64,000 nt of DNA from the human T2T-CHM13v2.0 reference genome, Homo sapiens: NCBI RefSeq assembly GCF_009914755.1, contig NC_060941.1; one strand, given 5' to 3'. Below the pieces are notes generated by a model. That model saw only the letters and a program-made list of their open reading frames with translations, did no database searches and was not told the DNA's origin. The translations under genes were made by a program, and so were the position numbers. Within the stretch, counting starts at the first letter, position 1. Each line of letters begins with the position of its first letter. Below, one piece after another: positions 24,948-30,625 of this stretch.

Positions 24948-26744
24948 GTATTTTAACACATTATTATTCCCACTTAGATTCTGTGTAATATTTAACCATT
25001 TAATTACATCAACAAATAAAAGCCTTTAGAAATTGATGTATCTAGCACAATTAAGGGGTAATTTGTTTATGATTACAGGAGTCATTTCATTTACACTAAT
25101 TTGATGTGAGGAGACAATCAAATTCCTTTTTTCCTATAAGAAAAACTTAATTCCGGGAGGCTTAGGCAGGAGAATCTCTTGAACCCAGGAGGCAGAAGTT
25201 GCAGTGAGCCGAGATTGCACCATTGCACTCCAGCCTGGGCAACAAGAGTGAAACTCTGTCTCAAAAAAATAAATAAATAAAATAAAATAAAAATTAAAAC
25301 TTAACCCTCACATTTTTTCTTTAAAAACATTACACTATTGAAATAGAATAGAATTTTGGACCTCAATGTTTCTATGCTTTTTGACAATGTAAAGATTATA
25401 TCAAGAATAACATTGACTCCTTGTGCACATGTGTGAAACTATGTCGAGCTGATGTATCCAGAAAAGAAATTGCAGCGATATTGGGTATAGAATTTCCAAT
25501 CTCAACCTCCTTCTTGTTGTGGAATAGAAATTTAGTTCCACCTTCTCTGTTCATAATACATAAGAGTAGATAATCAGATATGAGGTGATTAAATATATAA
25601 ACTGATTTCACAGTTACCATGGAAAGACCATAATATGTTTGGACGAGGTGGGGGAAAGAGTCTCCCTCTGAACTGAGATTTGAATAGGCTTTAGATAGAC
25701 TAAAAACCCATGGCCTGTCTTCTTCAACTTCCCATCATTGATCATCTGGGAGAATCAAAATGGCCTGGATTATAAAGTGATTACAATTAGTAGGGCAGGC
25801 ATACTAAATAAAAATGGGGTGAGTGTGCTTGGATGGGAAAAACTGGGGTGCAGAGAAATATTTCCTGTTTTGGAGGCTTCGTTCATAGCGAGCCTGAGGA
25901 TGCAGATGATATGGAACATGAGCCCCACCAGGATATACATCCTCCTGCACAGTCTTCCCTGATCAGTGCTGTCTATTGCCCTAGGCACCATCCTCAGCCA
26001 CTCTGTGTTAGGCACTTAGGACAGTTCTGTTCAAAGCATGATTGCTTTCTGGTCAGTGAAGAAATAGTAAAGAAATGAGAGTCTGCTTTTGAAGCTTTTG
26101 TAGCAACTTAACATTTCTGCAATGTCGTGGTACATGTTTTATATTTTTTAAAAGTATTCATCTGCAGACTAGAAATAAAAGAGTCCTTCAGCACAGATAG
26201 TTTGAGAGATGCTACTGTAGAGTGCCCTGGGAGGATGGGATTCTTCTAGACATTGACGGCTCCCTGGAGTGGTGCTGGAGCTTGCTGAGATAGGGACGCG
26301 GGGATTGCTGTGGAACAGCATGTTGTGAAAACAGGCACAGATGGGCTGTTGCCACGTACTCAGTATTTGGCAGGCCCAGGCACCCTGCCCCGGGGAGACA
26401 GAGCAACAGCTGTCATTTCCAAAAATGTGACACAAATATGACTTTCGTTTTTTATTGTATGTGTATGCATGTGTGCATGCGCATGTGTGGTTGGTGTGTG
26501 GGTAAATAATATTGGTGAGGGAGTTAGCAGTGCAGAGACGCAGAGATGAATCTAATGAATTTATATTTGGAGGCCCTTGAAAGGAGCCCTGTGCATGCAT
26601 AATCAGGAAGCAGAAGTGCAGTCGTAGGCCAGTCCCATCCTCTGGTGGAAACAGCAAATTACAGCCTTAGCACTTCTCACCTGTAGCAAAAGAAATGTAT
26701 GCTGCACCTGGGAGGGGTAGGAGAACTTCTTAGAATTTGGTGGG

Positions 26745-27350
26745 TTTATTAGTCAGGGTTGTGTAGAGAAACAGAACCAATGAGATGAATATGTTAGATA
26801 GATGATAGATAGATAGATAGATAGATAGATAGATAGATAGATAGATAGAGATGATAGATGATATAGATAGATGATAGATGATAGATAATAGATGATACAT
26901 AGATAGATATAGCAAATAGATCTATAGATATGACAGAGAGAGAATGAGAGAGATTTACATTAAAGAATTGGCTCACATGATTGTGGGGGCTGCAAATCCT
27001 ACATCTGTAGAATTTGCTGGCAGGATGGAAATTCAGGTAAGAGTGGATATTGTAGCCTTGAGTCGAAAGTCCACAGGGCAGCAAGCTGGAAACTCAGGCA
27101 AGGTTTCTAGGTTGCAGTCTTAAGAAGAATTTCATATTCTTTAGGAAACCTCAGTCTGTGTTCTTAGGGTCTTCAACTGATTGAATGAAGCACAAACATT
27201 ATGGAAGGAAATCCGGTTTACTCAAAGTCTGCTGGATTAAGCATTAATCCCAACTAAAAAACGCCTTCACAGCAACATTTAGACTACTGTTCAGCCAAGT
27301 ATCTGGGCACCATAGCTCAGATAAGTTGACGTATAAAATTCACCATCACA
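26745..27350 (-). mobile_element. MLT2 (ERVL) solo LTR containing a (GATA)n microsatellite at ~26795-26900
   Basis: TATTAGTCAGGGTT...GAGAAACAGAACCAAT start and ...AAAATTCACCATCACA end. Confidence 0.82.
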
Positions 27351-28078
27351 AGGGAGGAATTTATATATACACTTTATTGCAGCAAAATCTTTACAGTTTA
27401 ACGTTTTGTACTTTTCCCAGAAGGAAACGTTTCAGTGCAGAGTTGAATATCGCATCTTTCCGTAGCTCATACAAATCCCATACAACTTTGATTTACTGAG
27501 CCTCTCCTGAAAACTGGACAACTTAAGTGTTCATGAAAGGTTTTAATTGCTTAAGAAAATAGACTGTTTGTGTGAATTACAAAGAAAAAGGGATTTTAGA
27601 AGGAACATTGGTACTCCGGGAAGCAGGTTGGGGCAAGGCTTGCATAAGTGAATCAGAAGTTTTAGGCACGAAGTCAGCACCTCTGTCATGGCCTATGTCA
27701 GTTGAGTCTTTACCTTTGCCTCGTGCCTGGCCTTCAGACCCTGTGAGCCCGCTCCGGGACAGGGTTACGGCCAATCCAGCAGAGATTCTGGCAAAGCATC
27801 CCGGGAATGAGAGTGAGAAAGGCCCAAAGCAGTCAAGGCCCAAAGACAACCCTCGACCCCATCTCTCCAAATGTCAGCCCTCAAGATCTCAGGCTCTCTG
27901 GACCTCAATCTCCATGCCACTTCAAAGGCCCCAAATTTCAGCCCCAGCAGCTCCAGCTCATAGCCCTAGGTCTTCAGAGATCACTCCAGTAACTCCCAAA
28001 TATCACCCCAGGGATCCAGTTCTGACAGCCAAGACCACTCCTCTCATAAAATAATCGCAGATATTAGGTGAAGATCCC

Positions 28079-28176
28079 CAAAGCCCCAAGGAAACCCTAA
28101 ATCTCATCCTGAGGACACCGATCCCACCAAAGCCCCGAGGAAACCCCAAATTTCATCTCGAGGACACCAGTCCCAC
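28079..28176. repeat. 49-bp tandem duplication, 2 copies
   Basis: CAAAGCCCCAAGGAAACCCTAAATCTCATCCTGAGGACACCGATCCCAC / CAAAGCCCCGAGGAAACCCCAAATTTCATCTCGAGGACACCAGTCCCAC. Confidence 0.9.
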
Positions 28177-28648
28177 CGTTAGGAACCGGGACCTCAACCC
28201 ACAGCACCCGGATTCCGAGAACAGAGGCTTCGGGGCCAAATGGGCTGAATCCAGTACCTCACTCCCACGCCCCCGGGTGGACAGCAACCCTCCTCCACCG
28301 CGTCCCCTCGTGGGTTTTAGGTCCTATATTTGAGGGATGTGGCCTCCTCCTTTTATATCATGTTGGCCAAGAATGATCTACACAGTCATCATGGAATATT
28401 GCATGGAGATAAGGAGTGGCTGTGCCCCTGCCTGAAGGGCTCATCCCATTCATGAGGCAGGATGACCCTCAAGGCAGTGCTACTCCCTAGAGTCAAAGCT
28501 CAGGTAAGGTGTTTAGGGGCCAGTTGCAACATGAAGCACATTAGCCAAGGCAGTCTCAAAGAGTATTGCCAGAGGAAGAATCTACACCTGGCTGTTTAAT
28601 GAGGTTGAAAGGCAAATCTAGGTCAAGCAGGCCAAGTAAAGAGGTCAG

Positions 28649-28936
28649 CCCAGCACTTTGGGAGGCAGAGGCAGGTGGATCACCTGAGGTCAGGAGTTCG
28701 AGACCAGCCTGGCCAACATGGTGAAACCTTGTCTTTACTAAAAATACAAAAATTAGCTGGGTGTGGTGGCACGCGCCTGTAATCCCAGCTATTCAGGAGG
28801 CTGAGGCAGGAGAATTGCTTGAACCAGGGAGGCGGAGGTTGTGGTGAGCCAAGATCAGGCCACTGCACTCCAGCCTGGGTGACAGAGTGAAACTCCGCCT
28901 CAAAAAATAAATAAATAAATAAATAAAAATAAAAAA
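28649..28936 (+). mobile_element. AluSx-like, 5'-truncated, TSD AAGA(G/A)GTCAG
   Basis: Alu consensus; empty site seen in the paralogous copy (AAGAGGTCAGAGAGCCCATG, ~18509). Confidence 0.92.
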
Positions 28937-29717
28937 GAAGTCAGAAAGCCCATGAAAAACATTTGGAGGGAAGAAGTTAGTCCAAGAATAAAAGCATTAG
29001 GTCAGGGCGTCTAAGATCCCCAAGGATTGGTCCTGGCTGTGTAGACACTTAAAGAGATTGTGCAAGGCTGGACAGGAGGGTGAGCTGGCCAAAAAGGTGA
29101 TCTGCTAACTGTGGAATCAACCACCGCCCAATGTCCTGGATAACTGAGTCTGACTCGCAATGGTTAGGCTTACCATTGTAAATCAGTCTTGAAGTATAAA
29201 CAAGTTCATTAAACTACCCCTCCTGTTTACATTTTCTTTTATTCCCTGATTCATGTAATCTCTGTAGCTCATATCTAAATAAAAAATAATAACATGGACT
29301 TGTTATTATGCATGTCGTGGTTTACTTCTAACTGTAAAGTTTCTGATTATTCTCCTGTCATGCTGATCTTCATGTCAGAAGAAAACGCTTTGCTATTCAC
29401 CATGAGTGCAGAAAACTGCTTACTAGAAACGATTCTAAACAGCAAAGGATGTATATTTGAAATAATAGGGTTGTAATGAAAAAGTACATATTTCTCAATC
29501 TCATTCAATACATTGTACCCGTAGAGTAAAAGATATAGAAAAGCATCTTATGTTTTAAAAATGTAAGTCTGAGAGTGAAAAACAGAGACAATAAAAACCT
29601 TTCTCTAAATATTATTGGTGGAAAAGTCTCAAAGCAATAGAAAGTATATATAAAATGCCTGTGAATTTTTGTGCAATAAAATCATATATATATATGTGTG
29701 TGTGTATGTATATTTGT

Positions 29718-30034
29718 TTTTTTTGTTTTGTTTTGTTTTTTTTTTTTTTTTTTGAGACGGAGTCTCGCTCTGTCGCCCAGGCTGGAGTGCAGTGGCGGGA
29801 TCTCGGCTCACTGCAAGCTCCGCCTCCCGGGTTCACGCCATTCTCCTGCCTCAGCCTCCCAAGTAGCTGGGACTACAGGCGCCCGCCACTACGCCCGGCT
29901 AATTTTTTGTATTTTTAGTAGAGACGGGGTTTCACCGTTTTAGCGGGGTTGGTCTCGATCTCCTGACCTCGTGATCTGCCCGCCTCGGCCTCCCAAAGTG
30001 CTGGGATTACAGGCGTGAGCCACCGCGCCCGGCC
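29718..30034 (-). mobile_element. AluYa5-like young Alu, TSD TGTATGTATATTTGT
   Basis: Ya5 diagnostics GGCGGGATC, CGCCACTAC, CTCCCAAGTAG, CCGTTTTAGC; CpGs retained; TSD at 29703-29717 and 30037-30051. Confidence 0.88.
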
Positions 30035-30625
30035 AATGTATGTATATTTGTAACTCAGATTTGTAAATGCAGCCACATTCATATCCACACATCAAATGCA
30101 CCGAAAAGATTCACTAAGTTCCTCATAGTCAGTCCATAAATTCCCAGCTTCTTCACATATTCGCATTTTTTGTCTTAACATGATATAATAGTTAAAAAAA
30201 TTTAAAAATTAATAATTAACCAAGTTTTTTTTTCTTGTAGACTATATCAGCCATTATTCAGAAACATTAATTCATTGTTTTAAAAATAATTTCTCTAGAG
30301 ATGTTTGGCACTTAGTATATGAAATCATTTATAATTGAATAATACAAACAAAACAGAAAAAAGAACTTACTTTTGGGACATCTGAAGAAAGTGACCTACA
30401 AACTCAGTTTATCCCTGAGTCTCATTATTTTTAGGAAAATGGTCTCTATGTCATCTCTATGTTATGTTTGACTTGTCTTGCTTGAGTCTGTTTTCCAGAA
30501 AGATTGTGATCCTTGGCCTGTTGAATATGAAATTTACATGATCACTCTTGGGAAAAATTCCTTTTTTAGTGACTGCAAGCCAGGTCCTGTGGCCGAGAAG
30601 CATCAGCTGTACTTGGTTGACTGAC

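What the first reader, a model, noticed from the sequence alone, without database searches (positions are those of the whole stretch)
26590..30550. Orphan duplicate of the ABCA8 exon-1/intron-1 module about 10 kb upstream: relic of a lost ABCA8 paralogue or an alternative first exon
Seen: collinear, same-orientation homology (roughly 65-75% by eye) between copy A and copy B: 17686-17800/26597-26702, 17843-18170/27352-27690, 18198-18625/28321-29069, 19223-19295/29086-29160, 19582-19680/29511-29605 and 19982-20230/30282-30450. The exon-1 donor context is kept (A: AAACAAAACAGAAAAAATACAGTGAACTTACTTCTGGGA; B: AAACAAAACAGAAAAAAGAACTTACTTTTGGGA). MLT2, AluS and AluY insertions are present only in B, so the duplication is old. 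I saw no ABCA coding exons between B and ABCA8. Knowledge (from memory): mouse has two Abca8 genes, with Abca8a between Abca8b and Abca9. Inference: B is the surviving 5' end of a deleted ABCA8 paralogue and could still splice into ABCA8 as a distal first exon.
Basis: partly seen in the sequence, partly recalled or inferred. Interest (0 to 1): 0.8.

Follow-up and report, generated by a model that had tools for sequence, protein, structure and literature searches.

The report
Old leftover copy of ABCA8 start
About 10 kb upstream of human ABCA8 lies a real, very old and decaying copy of that gene's non-coding first exon and early first intron, probably the stump of a third ABCA8/ABCA9-type gene that humans lost and rodents may have kept.

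Summary
Copy B (window 25511-30632) is collinear and same-strand with the ABCA8 exon-1/intron-1 module A (17373-20435). They share 67% identity over 1773 aligned bases (block E-values from 2.7e-7 to 1e-45; weak 25.5 kb extension 3e-4 to 5e-3). The tested blocks occur nowhere else in the genome, so this is not an interspersed repeat. A third, weaker copy C is ABCA9's own 5' module, outside the window. B is clearly closer to A than to C, and all three keep a GTAAGT donor. A-B divergence (K about 0.44-0.46) is about 0.7-0.8 of A-C divergence. That puts the duplication near or before the primate-rodent split. No coding-exon relic lies between ABCA9 and ABCA8. In protein trees, human ABCA8 is the orthologue of rodent Abca8b. 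The Abca8a clade, which includes rabbit, falls outside all other eutherian ABCA8. However, an AU test does not reject a Glires-only duplication (p 0.14). My best reading (about 0.5) is that B is the neutral 5' stump of a lost ABCA8A-type gene. A 5'-only partial duplication (about 0.33) is not excluded. Use as a live alternative first exon has no support: RefSeq lists no such transcript, the TATA box is missing, and B carries slightly more changes of its own. Mouse DNA and expression data could not be examined.

The parts
30371..30507 (-). B exon-1-like segment, the counterpart of ABCA8 exon 1 (20132-20305). Its last base is 30371, followed by GTAAGTT.
   Evidence: Three-way alignment; donor position; nhmmer A19976-20435/B30277-30632 E 7e-12.
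30508..30632 (-). B promoter-proximal segment, homologous to about 130 bp upstream of the ABCA8 start site. The TATAAAT of A (about 20405-20411) reads TACAGCT here.
   Evidence: Homology stops where the LTR-like repeat begins.
30277..30370 (-). B intron-1-like block nearest the donor.
29085..29686 (-). B intron-1-like block, homologous to A19223-19759 and to ABCA9's module (124907-125342 in extended window coordinates).
   Evidence: nhmmer E about 3e-30 against A and 1.5e-7 against C.
28318..28664 (-). B intron-1-like block and the best-kept one, homologous to A18204-18532.
   Evidence: 76% by blastn; E 3.8e-44. The A18272-18518 part of its A counterpart has only two places in the genome, itself and this block.
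27354..27707 (-). B intron-1-like block, homologous to A17842-18175. It includes a 29-bp stretch at 93% (27356-27384).
   Evidence: E 1.8e-25.
26592..26698 (-). B intron-1-like block, homologous to A17686-17796.
   Evidence: nhmmer E 2.7e-7.
25511..25828 (-). Weak distal extension of B. It is collinear with A17373-17595 and with ABCA9's module at 121559-121684 (extended coordinates).
   Evidence: E 2.6e-4 and 2.4e-3; 5.3e-3 and 8.7e-5. No decoy hits.
26699..27353 (.). B-only insertion of an old high-copy interspersed repeat.
   Evidence: 2585 first-look candidates, of which 40 were scored; copies are 71-77% identical.
27708..28317 (.). B-only 610-bp G+C-rich patch. Its only other copy found in the genome is on chr19 at 96% identity.
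   Evidence: 2 of 2 candidates; sequence. It sits cleanly between A18175 and A18204.
28672..28926 (-). B-only Alu.
   Evidence: 85% identical to the Alu at 17126-17378; 69 hits in the 264-kb cluster.
29710..30052 (+). B-only Alu.
   Evidence: 91% identical to the Alu at 17133-17376; 66 hits in the cluster.
30622..30980 (-). LTR-like high-copy repeat directly upstream of B, in the same sense as the gene. It marks where A-B homology ends.
   Evidence: 8771 first-look candidates, of which 40 were scored at 84-88%. It is 77% identical to a copy at 24052-24417.
17373..20435 (-). Copy A: ABCA8 exon 1 (20132-20305), about 130 bp of promoter and the first 2.8 kb of intron 1.
   Evidence: Hub annotation.
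18636..19225 (.). A-only insert. It is an inverted copy of 17449-17838 at 92-96% identity, split by a young roughly 200-bp high-copy fragment at 18938-19140.

Best explanation
B is the neutrally decaying 5' stump of a third ABCA8/ABCA9-type gene. It keeps the promoter-proximal 130 bp, the non-coding first exon with its splice donor, and the first few kb of intron 1.

Shown:
- ABCA8 (A), ABCA9 (C) and B share one ancestral 5' module.
- B is sister to A.
- B is about as old as the eutherian radiation.
- It has since taken up at least four insertions of its own, and an LTR-like repeat sits directly upstream.

Inferred: the ABCA8 lineage duplicated in tandem as a whole gene. That gave the ancestor of rodent/rabbit Abca8a (upstream copy) and of ABCA8/Abca8b (downstream copy). 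In the lineage to humans, one or more deletions removed the upstream copy from within intron 1 to its 3' end. Only B was left, lying between ABCA9 and ABCA8. I judge it inactive today.
For: 1. Real, unique and collinear homology A-B: E values from 2.7e-7 to 1e-45, and none of 7 queries hit the reversed decoy. The tested blocks have no other copies in the genome.
2. ABCA9's own 5' module carries the same module. A19232-20449 matches C124769-126070 at E 1.3e-15, and B matches C at E 1.5e-7, 2.5e-5 and 1.6e-3, all collinear. C lies 9.7 kb upstream of ABCA9's first coding exon. Its donor at 125759 gives an ABCA9 span of about 86 kb, the figure printed for NM_080283 in PMC3293240 (table passage seen). 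The module therefore travels with whole-gene duplicates in this cluster.
3. B groups with A. Over 1546 three-way columns, A=B differs from C at 375 sites, A=C from B at 228, and B=C from A at 183. The A-B pairing was recovered in 2000 of 2000 bootstraps.
4. Age. K(A-B) is 0.44 (nhmmer, 1773 columns) to 0.46 (MAFFT). K(A-C) is 0.57 to 0.66. That is about 0.22 per lineage, above the roughly 0.17 that I recall for the human lineage since the human-mouse ancestor.
5. Protein trees of named mammalian sequences. Primates plus rodent 8b-type form a clade (SH-aLRT 99 with ABCA9 as outgroup; 97 without an outgroup). The 8a-type clade (rabbit plus 6 rodents, support 100) lies outside all 26 other eutherian ABCA8 (support 99). 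Group-majority sites where 8a keeps the ABCA9 state against all other ABCA8 number 5-6. Sites uniting 8a with 8b number 0.
6. A-B and A-C homology end at almost the same point upstream of the start site (A20435 and A20449). This fits one shared duplication unit better than a random partial copy.
7. B has more changes of its own than A (228 vs 183, binomial p 0.03), as expected if A and C are constrained and B is not.
Against: - No coding-exon, intron-body or 3'-flank relic was found in 20306-39401. blastn against the 264-kb cluster plus the ABCA8 3' end found only the A-B chain and repeats.
- tblastn with ABCA8, ABCA9, Abca8a and Abca8b proteins gave 33 hits at E<=10, the best at E 0.018 (25594-25748). 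That hit runs across an exon junction without an intron, so I take it as chance. The positive controls found 3 ABCA8 HSPs and 14-17 ABCA9 HSPs.
- The upstream flanks of A and B share nothing but repeats.
- The AU test does not reject Abca8a plus Abca8b as one clade (delta lnL 31.8, p 0.141).
- Under strict criteria, 8a shares 23 of 39 ABCA8-stem changes and keeps the ABCA9 state at only 1.
- 8a-type proteins were seen only in Glires among the 120 best rows of each search. An old origin therefore needs several independent losses.
- Breuss et al. 2020 (PMC7674697, passages seen) call it a duplication in mouse.
- The mouse order Abca8b-Abca8a-Abca9 is recalled and not verified. The supplement searches did not give it.
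Confidence: 0.5

Rival explanations
1. Partial duplication. Only the 5' module of the ABCA8 lineage (promoter-proximal part, exon 1 and a few kb of intron 1) was copied a few kb upstream about 90-120 million years ago. There was never a full gene at B. Rodent Abca8a arose separately in Glires.
For: - No exon, intron-body or 3' relic lies anywhere between ABCA9 and ABCA8.
- The AU test leaves a Glires-only Abca8a/b duplication open (p 0.141).
- 8a-type proteins were seen only in Glires.
- The flanks of A and B are not homologous beyond the module.
Against: - The same module accompanies a whole-gene duplicate at ABCA9.
- The upstream ends of A-B and A-C homology nearly coincide (20435 vs 20449). 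That would be a coincidence for a random breakpoint. However, B's end also coincides with an LTR insertion.
- The unconstrained ML trees put 8a outside the primate plus 8b clade.
- The age of B matches the minimum age of the 8a/8b split, which is at least the rabbit-rodent ancestor.
Confidence: 0.33
2. B is a working distal promoter or alternative first exon, or a regulatory element, for ABCA8. This could hold whatever its origin. Transcripts would start at B or in the LTR-like repeat just upstream and splice from 30371 to exon 2 (14382) or to the first coding exon (acceptor at 6944).
For: - The donor AAA|GTAAGTT is intact and as good as that of A (GAA|GTAAGTT) and C (AGA|GTAAGTT).
- A sense-oriented LTR-like repeat lies directly upstream.
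- The sequence is still alignable after about 100 million years.
Against: - The hub's RefSeq table shows ABCA8 ending at 20305 for all 8 transcripts. It lists no gene or functional element at B.
- Keeping the donor is not significant. Given A=C, the chance that B keeps 8 of 8 bases is 0.087, and 6 of 6 is 0.16.
- The TATA box of A is absent from B.
- Identity in the exon/promoter block (68%) is no higher than in the intron blocks (64-73%).
- B has an excess of its own changes (p 0.03).
- No Rfam family matches in 17000-34000.
- Searches for 'ABCA8' + 'alternative promoter' + 'first exon' gave 2 papers, both irrelevant by their title and abstract start in the listing.
Confidence: 0.07
3. The shared blocks are copies of one long interspersed repeat, or chance similarity in A+T-rich DNA.
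For: Both regions are A+T-rich and full of transposon insertions. Many other similarities in the interval are repeats.
Against: - The blocks have no other copies in the 3.1-Gb genome at the sensitivity of the search, nor in the 264-kb cluster apart from ABCA9's 5' end.
- Six blocks keep order and strand.
- No decoy hits.
- E values go down to 1e-45.
Confidence: 0.02

Closest known systems
Mouse/rat Abca8a, the tandem paralogue of Abca8b
   Same: It is an ABCA8-lineage duplicate. By recall it lies between Abca8b and Abca9, which is where B lies in human. The split is at least as old as the rabbit-rodent ancestor (8a clade with rabbit, support 100). That is compatible with B's divergence from A.
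   Different: Abca8a is a complete, expressed gene. B keeps only non-coding 5' sequence. Direct homology between B and the Abca8a 5' end was not testable here.
Human ABCA14P/ABCA15P/ABCA17P: ABC pseudogenes with functional counterparts only in rodents (Piehler et al. 2008, PMC2329642, passages seen; the 2006 paper only as a reference title)
   Same: These are human remains of ABCA genes that rodents retain. ABCA17P also involves a shared 5' end with a neighbouring gene (ABCA3).
   Different: They retain recognisable exons, and some are transcribed. B has no coding remnant. It is absent from that catalogue of 22 pseudogenes: 'ABCA8' and '17q24' each occur 0 times in the text.
ABCA9's own exon-1/intron-1 module (copy C, chr17:69,933,559-69,938,070 in T2T)
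   Same: It has the same ancestral module, the same strand and block order, and a GTAAGTT donor at the same aligned position.
   Different: C heads an intact gene. It is more distant, at 56-60% identity to A and 53% to B on three-way columns.
Birth-and-death evolution of ABCA6-like genes (Breuss et al. 2020, PMC7674697)
   Same: The paper describes a burst of duplications at the base of Eutheria followed by frequent lineage-specific loss (abstract and passages seen). A lost fifth member would fit that pattern.
   Different: The paper treats Abca8a/b as a duplication in mouse and reports no human relic. Its criteria needed coding similarity, so a non-coding stump could not be found.

Membership tests
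Interspersed repeat (the Dfam family proposed as refutation) | Many dispersed copies in the genome | tested here: not met
   A18272-18518 has 2 places, itself and B. A19226-20620 has itself plus a 59-bp local patch. A17449-17838 occurs only in this locus. No Dfam library was available, and the search misses copies below about 77% identity.
Interspersed repeat (the Dfam family proposed as refutation) | Copies unrelated to gene structure | tested here: not met
   The only further copy in 264 kb is at the equivalent place of ABCA9, 9.7 kb upstream of its first coding exon.
Unprocessed (duplicated or unitary) pseudogene relic of an ABCA8-like gene | Collinear homology to the parent's exon-intron structure, on the same strand | tested here: met
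   Six blocks cover the promoter-proximal part, exon 1, the donor and intron 1.
Unprocessed (duplicated or unitary) pseudogene relic of an ABCA8-like gene | Recognisable remnants of coding exons | tested here: not met
   blastn and tblastn (best E 0.018, judged chance) on 20306-39401.
Unprocessed (duplicated or unitary) pseudogene relic of an ABCA8-like gene | An intact orthologue at the syntenic place in other species | not testable with these tools
   No mammalian genome other than the window's own is held. The mouse order Abca8b-Abca8a-Abca9 is recalled only.
Unprocessed (duplicated or unitary) pseudogene relic of an ABCA8-like gene | The gene lineage predates the human-rodent split | tested here: inconclusive
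   The ML trees say yes. The AU test does not reject the alternative (p 0.141). Non-coding K of 0.44-0.46 suggests yes.
Alternative first exon / alternative promoter of ABCA8 | Usable 5' splice site | tested here: met
   AAA|GTAAGTT with the intron starting at 30370.
Alternative first exon / alternative promoter of ABCA8 | Transcripts or start sites mapped to it | not testable with these tools
   No CAGE or RNA-seq data are held. RefSeq (hub table) has none, and the literature search was empty.
Alternative first exon / alternative promoter of ABCA8 | Sequence constraint above the neutral level | tested here: not met
   The exon/promoter block is 68% identical against 64-73% in the intron blocks. 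B has an excess of its own changes (p 0.03).
Segmental duplication (usual definition, recalled: at least 1 kb and at least 90% identity) | At least 90% identity | tested here: not met
   67% identity. The duplication is far too old for that class.

The most novel reading that the evidence does not exclude
B is the human remnant of the orthologue of rodent/rabbit Abca8a. On this reading the Abca8a/Abca8b duplication is not a mouse or rodent event. It belongs to the early eutherian burst that made ABCA6, 8, 9 and 10. Human ABCA8 is strictly the orthologue of Abca8b. Primates, and probably most other placentals, then lost a fifth ABCA6-like gene by deletion and kept only its non-coding first exon and early intron.
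Probability: 0.42. Interest if true: 0.45.

Novelty: new member of a known kind. Interest (0 to 1): 0.35.

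Why it matters
If B is the stump of a lost ABCA8A, two things change.

First, the history of the 17q24 lipid-transporter cluster. The Abca8a/b duplication would be ancient, not a duplication in mouse, as it is currently described. 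Humans would have lost a gene that mice still use.

Second, the use of mouse models. Only Abca8b would be a true orthologue of human ABCA8. Abca8a would have no human counterpart.

It also shows that non-coding first exons can outlive the genes they headed. They are invisible to pseudogene surveys based on coding similarity.

If B is only a partial duplication, it is an ordinary piece of old genomic debris. Either way there is no sign that it matters for ABCA8 expression today.

Tried and rejected
- Interspersed-repeat explanation: rejected by genome-wide searches and by the decoy control.
- Relic exons: blastn of 20306-39401 against the 264-kb cluster plus the ABCA8 3' end found only repeats and the A-B chain. 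tblastn with four proteins gave a best E of 0.018 at 25594-25748. I rejected that hit because it spans the aa 760/761 exon junction with no intron, and its DNA instead belongs to the collinear A/C chain.
- Simple 8-10 kb tandem duplication: rejected, because the A-upstream and B-upstream flanks share only Alus and an LTR family in opposite orientation.
- Abca8a as an ABCA8/ABCA9 hybrid from unequal crossing-over, which would explain a basal tree position: a sliding-window identity scan shows no segment where 8a is markedly closer to ABCA9.
- Strict synapomorphy counts had too little power: 0 clean sites for Boreoeutheria or Euarchontoglires.
- ABCA6's 5' end (about 205-206.5 kb in extended coordinates) shows no copy of the module.
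- Rfam scan of 17000-34000: 0 matches.
- The Breuss 2020 supplement was searched for mouse coordinates or gene order and gave none. A search for a paper listing the mouse cluster order found 0 papers.
- The first three-way alignment used the wrong locus for ABCA9. It was discarded and redone.
- The B-C total is inflated by an Alu-Alu match and was not used.

Full report
**Observation**

A self-comparison confirms a chain of same-strand, same-order similarities between the ABCA8 exon-1/intron-1 region (A) and a region about 10 kb upstream (B). blastn found 18272-18518/28402-28648 at 76.6%, 19520-19754/29449-29681 at 72%, and 19977-20037/30278-30336 at 77%, among others.

nhmmer gives these blocks:
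- A17686-17796 / B26592-26698: E 2.7e-7.
- A17842-18175 / B27354-27707: E 1.8e-25.
- A18204-18518 / B28318-28660: E 3.8e-44.
- A19223-19759 / B29085-29686: E about 3e-30.
- A19976-20435 / B30277-30632: E 7e-12.

In total 1773 aligned columns are 67.2% identical.

Seven query pieces gave no hit at all (E<=10) against the reversed 264-kb sequence. All real hits were on the + strand and in order.

**Not a repeat**

The window's own genome (T2T-CHM13) could be searched.
- A18272-18518 occurs in two places, itself and B.
- A19226-20620 occurs once, plus a 59-bp local patch.
- A17449-17838 occurs only within this locus.

That search needs roughly 77% identity, so very old families could escape it. 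Even so, in 264 kb of the cluster the only further copy found by nhmmer is at the matching position of ABCA9.

By contrast, the pieces present in B but not in A are inserts:
- 26699-27353 is a high-copy old repeat, with 2585 first-look candidates of which 40 were scored, at 71-77%.
- 28672-28926 and 29710-30052 are Alus.
- 27708-28317 is a 610-bp patch with a single other copy on chr19 at 96%.
- An LTR-like high-copy repeat at 30622-30980 abuts the upstream end of the homology.

A has its own insert at 18636-19225.

**A third copy**

I fetched 200 kb beyond the window. With that sequence, A19232-20449 matches 124769-126070 (window-extended coordinates) at E 1.3e-15. B matches the same region collinearly:
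- B29218-29636 / 124907-125342: E 1.5e-7.
- B30286-30440 / 125668-125828: E 2.5e-5.
- B28340-28593 / 123114-123364: E 1.6e-3.
- B25705-25828 / 121559-121684: E 8.7e-5.

This copy C lies 9.7 kb upstream of ABCA9's first coding exon at 116022. Its GTAAGTT donor is at 125759. That gives an ABCA9 span of about 86 kb, the size printed for NM_080283 in a review table (PMC3293240, passage seen). C is therefore ABCA9's own non-coding exon 1 and early intron 1.

In the three-way alignment the donor is kept in all three copies: A GAA|GTAAGTT, B AAA|GTAAGTT, C AGA|GTAAGTT. A's TATAAAT is not kept in B or C.

**Relationship and age**

On 1546 columns where all three align, A=B differs from C at 375 sites, A=C from B at 228, and B=C from A at 183. 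The A-B pairing was recovered in 2000 of 2000 bootstraps.

- Identities on these columns are 65.6% (A-B), 56.1% (A-C) and 53.2% (B-C).
- K(A-B) is 0.44 from nhmmer alignments and 0.46 from MAFFT. K(A-C) is 0.57 and 0.66 respectively.
- B therefore arose from the ABCA8 lineage after the ABCA8/ABCA9 split, at roughly 0.7-0.8 of that depth.

Breuss et al. 2020 (PMC7674697, abstract and passages seen) place the ABCA6-like duplications at the base of Eutheria. About 0.22 substitutions per site per copy exceeds the roughly 0.17 that I recall for the human lineage since the human-mouse ancestor. That figure is recalled and not checked here. I therefore date B to around or before the primate-rodent split, with wide error from alignment uncertainty.

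B carries more changes of its own than A does (228 vs 183, binomial p 0.03). That is the pattern expected if A and C are mildly constrained and B is not.

**Search for the rest of a gene**

- blastn of the whole ABCA9-ABCA8 interval (20306-39401) against the 264-kb cluster plus the ABCA8 3' end found only repeats and the A-B chain.
- tblastn with ABCA8 (P0002), ABCA9 (P0117), mouse ABCA8A (P0146) and ABCA8B (P0103) gave 33 hits at E<=10, the best at E 0.018 (25594-25748). The controls recovered 3 ABCA8 HSPs and 14-17 ABCA9 HSPs.
- The best hit runs across the aa 760/761 exon boundary without an intron. Its DNA belongs to the non-coding A/C chain. I count it as chance.
- The upstream flanks of A and B share only Alus and one LTR family in opposite orientation. 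A simple 8-10 kb tandem unit is therefore not supported.
- A-B and A-C homology end within about 15 bp of each other upstream of the start site (A20435 and A20449). This hints at one shared duplication unit. However, in B that end also coincides with the LTR insertion.

**The rodent paralogues**

I built a tree of 39 chosen full-length rows: 6 ABCA9, 7 8a-type, 9 rodent 8b-type, 4 primate, 8 laurasiatherian and 5 afrotherian/xenarthran. I dropped isoforms, partial models and the apparently chimeric P0050. The method was IQ-TREE with LG+C20+F+G4 (PMSF), quick search.

- The tree puts primates plus rodent 8b-type together (SH-aLRT 99).
- It puts the 8a-type clade (rabbit 'ABCA8', Chinchilla, Fukomys, Jaculus, Peromyscus, mouse, rat; support 100) outside all 26 other eutherian ABCA8 (support 99).
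- Without the ABCA9 outgroup (LG+G4), primates plus 8b remain a clade (97). 8a attaches among the deepest, unresolved eutherian branches.

So human ABCA8 is the orthologue of Abca8b. This agrees with 75% vs 69% identity reported in PMC8953628 (passage seen). The 8a/8b split is at least as old as the rabbit-rodent ancestor, so it is not a mouse event.

Whether the split predates the primate-Glires split is not settled:
- Forcing 8a plus 8b into one clade costs 31.8 lnL units, but the AU p is 0.141.
- The 8a stem is long (0.13-0.18), so long-branch effects are possible.
- Strict site patterns show 8a sharing 23 of 39 ABCA8-stem changes, with 15 at a third state and 1 ancestral.
- Relaxed patterns give 5-6 sites where 8a keeps the ABCA9 state against all other ABCA8, and 0 sites uniting 8a with 8b. 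Reversals in a fast lineage could produce a few such sites.
- No hybrid ABCA8/ABCA9 signature is seen along 8a.

**Interpretation**

What is shown:
- There is an ancestral 5' module common to ABCA8 and ABCA9.
- A third, orphan copy of it exists and is sister to ABCA8's.
- That copy is roughly as old as the eutherian radiation and evolves without visible constraint.

What is inferred: the copy once headed a whole gene, the counterpart of Abca8a, whose body was deleted. The age match, the affinity to ABCA8, the shared unit boundary and the unconstrained trees favour this. The total lack of coding relics, the non-significant AU test, the Glires-only distribution of 8a proteins and my inability to compare mouse DNA weigh against it.

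I give the lost-gene reading 0.5, a 5'-only duplication 0.33, present-day activity 0.07, and repeat or chance 0.02.

**Activity**

The donor is intact, so splicing from 30371 to exon 2 (14382) is mechanistically possible. Keeping it is not significant, though: the chance is 0.087 for 8 of 8 bases given A=C.

- RefSeq lists no transcript, gene or functional element there (hub table).
- Rfam finds nothing in 17000-34000.
- The searches 'ABCA8' + 'alternative promoter' + 'first exon' (2 papers, irrelevant by their listing) and 'ABCA8' + 'ABCA9' + '17q24' + 'pseudogene' (7 papers, two read in passages) turned up no description of this element.
- Piehler et al. 2008 (PMC2329642) list 22 human ABC pseudogenes, none from ABCA8 or 17q24. 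The terms 'ABCA8' and '17q24' each occur 0 times.

These searches cover only the held open-access library. Annilo et al. 2003 and Li et al. 2007, which I recall as relevant, were not seen.

**Verdict**

This is an old gene-duplication relic of a familiar kind. Its modest interest lies in what it implies for the orthology of mouse Abca8a/b and for gene loss in the human cluster.

Noticed in passing
window 17449-17838 and 18636-19225: ABCA8 intron 1 holds a 390-bp inverted duplication at 92-96% identity, found only at this locus. Its arms lie 797 bp apart. The second arm is split by a young, roughly 200-bp high-copy fragment at 18938-19140 (96-98% identical to many genomic copies, beginning with a T-run). 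By recall this looks like the 3' end of a young L1. The first arm is the ancestral one, since it matches B.
   Followed up: partly
window 21302-21360: A 59-bp, 97% identical copy of the ABCA8 start-site region (20285-20343) sits 1 kb upstream. It is flanked on both sides by CA/TG microsatellite. It looks like a recent templated patch insertion.
   Followed up: partly
window 27708-28317: A 610-bp G+C-rich patch lies inside B. Only one other copy was found in the genome, at chr19:11,472,636-11,473,245, with 96% identity and on the same strand. It has no poly-A and no convincing reading frame. Its origin is unexplained; it could be a small interchromosomal duplication or a repair patch.
   Followed up: partly
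window 14108-14714 (ABCA8 exon 2 = 14222-14382): The non-coding exon 2 of ABCA8 lies inside an old interspersed repeat. Copies (63-67% identical) are at 32837-33404 within the window, and at 66310-66862, 102804-103360 and 141287-141733 in extended coordinates. The exon therefore appears to be transposon-derived.
   Followed up: partly
proteins P0153, P0155, P0156 (rabbit 'ABCA8') and the 8a clade: Rabbit 'ABCA8' is of the Abca8a type. No 8b-type rabbit protein appeared in the listed rows. Squirrels, beaver, kangaroo rats and porcupine showed only 8b-type in the listed rows. The 8a/8b split is therefore older than rodents, not a mouse event.
   Followed up: partly
protein P0050 (Pan troglodytes, named ABCA9): It is 81% identical to ABCA8, against 72% for true ABCA9. 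In the tree it sits between the two clades on a near-zero branch. It is probably a chimeric ABCA8/ABCA9 gene model, and it distorted the first tree.
   Followed up: no
proteins P0106/P0109/P0110, P0077/P0098, P0076/P0086: Sac-winged bats carry several distinct ABCA8-like proteins that cluster together as one bat-specific group (Saccopteryx 3 on one contig, Rhynchonycteris 2). Eptesicus carries 2, which cluster by species. These look like recent lineage-specific ABCA8 duplications in bats.
   Followed up: no
window 24050-24945 and 30622-32675: The same LTR-type element family occurs upstream of A (+ orientation) and directly upstream of B (- orientation). A further copy lies upstream of ABCA9's exon 1 (130624-131010 in extended coordinates). 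They are taken as independent insertions because of their orientation and their 84-88% identity to genomic copies.
   Followed up: partly
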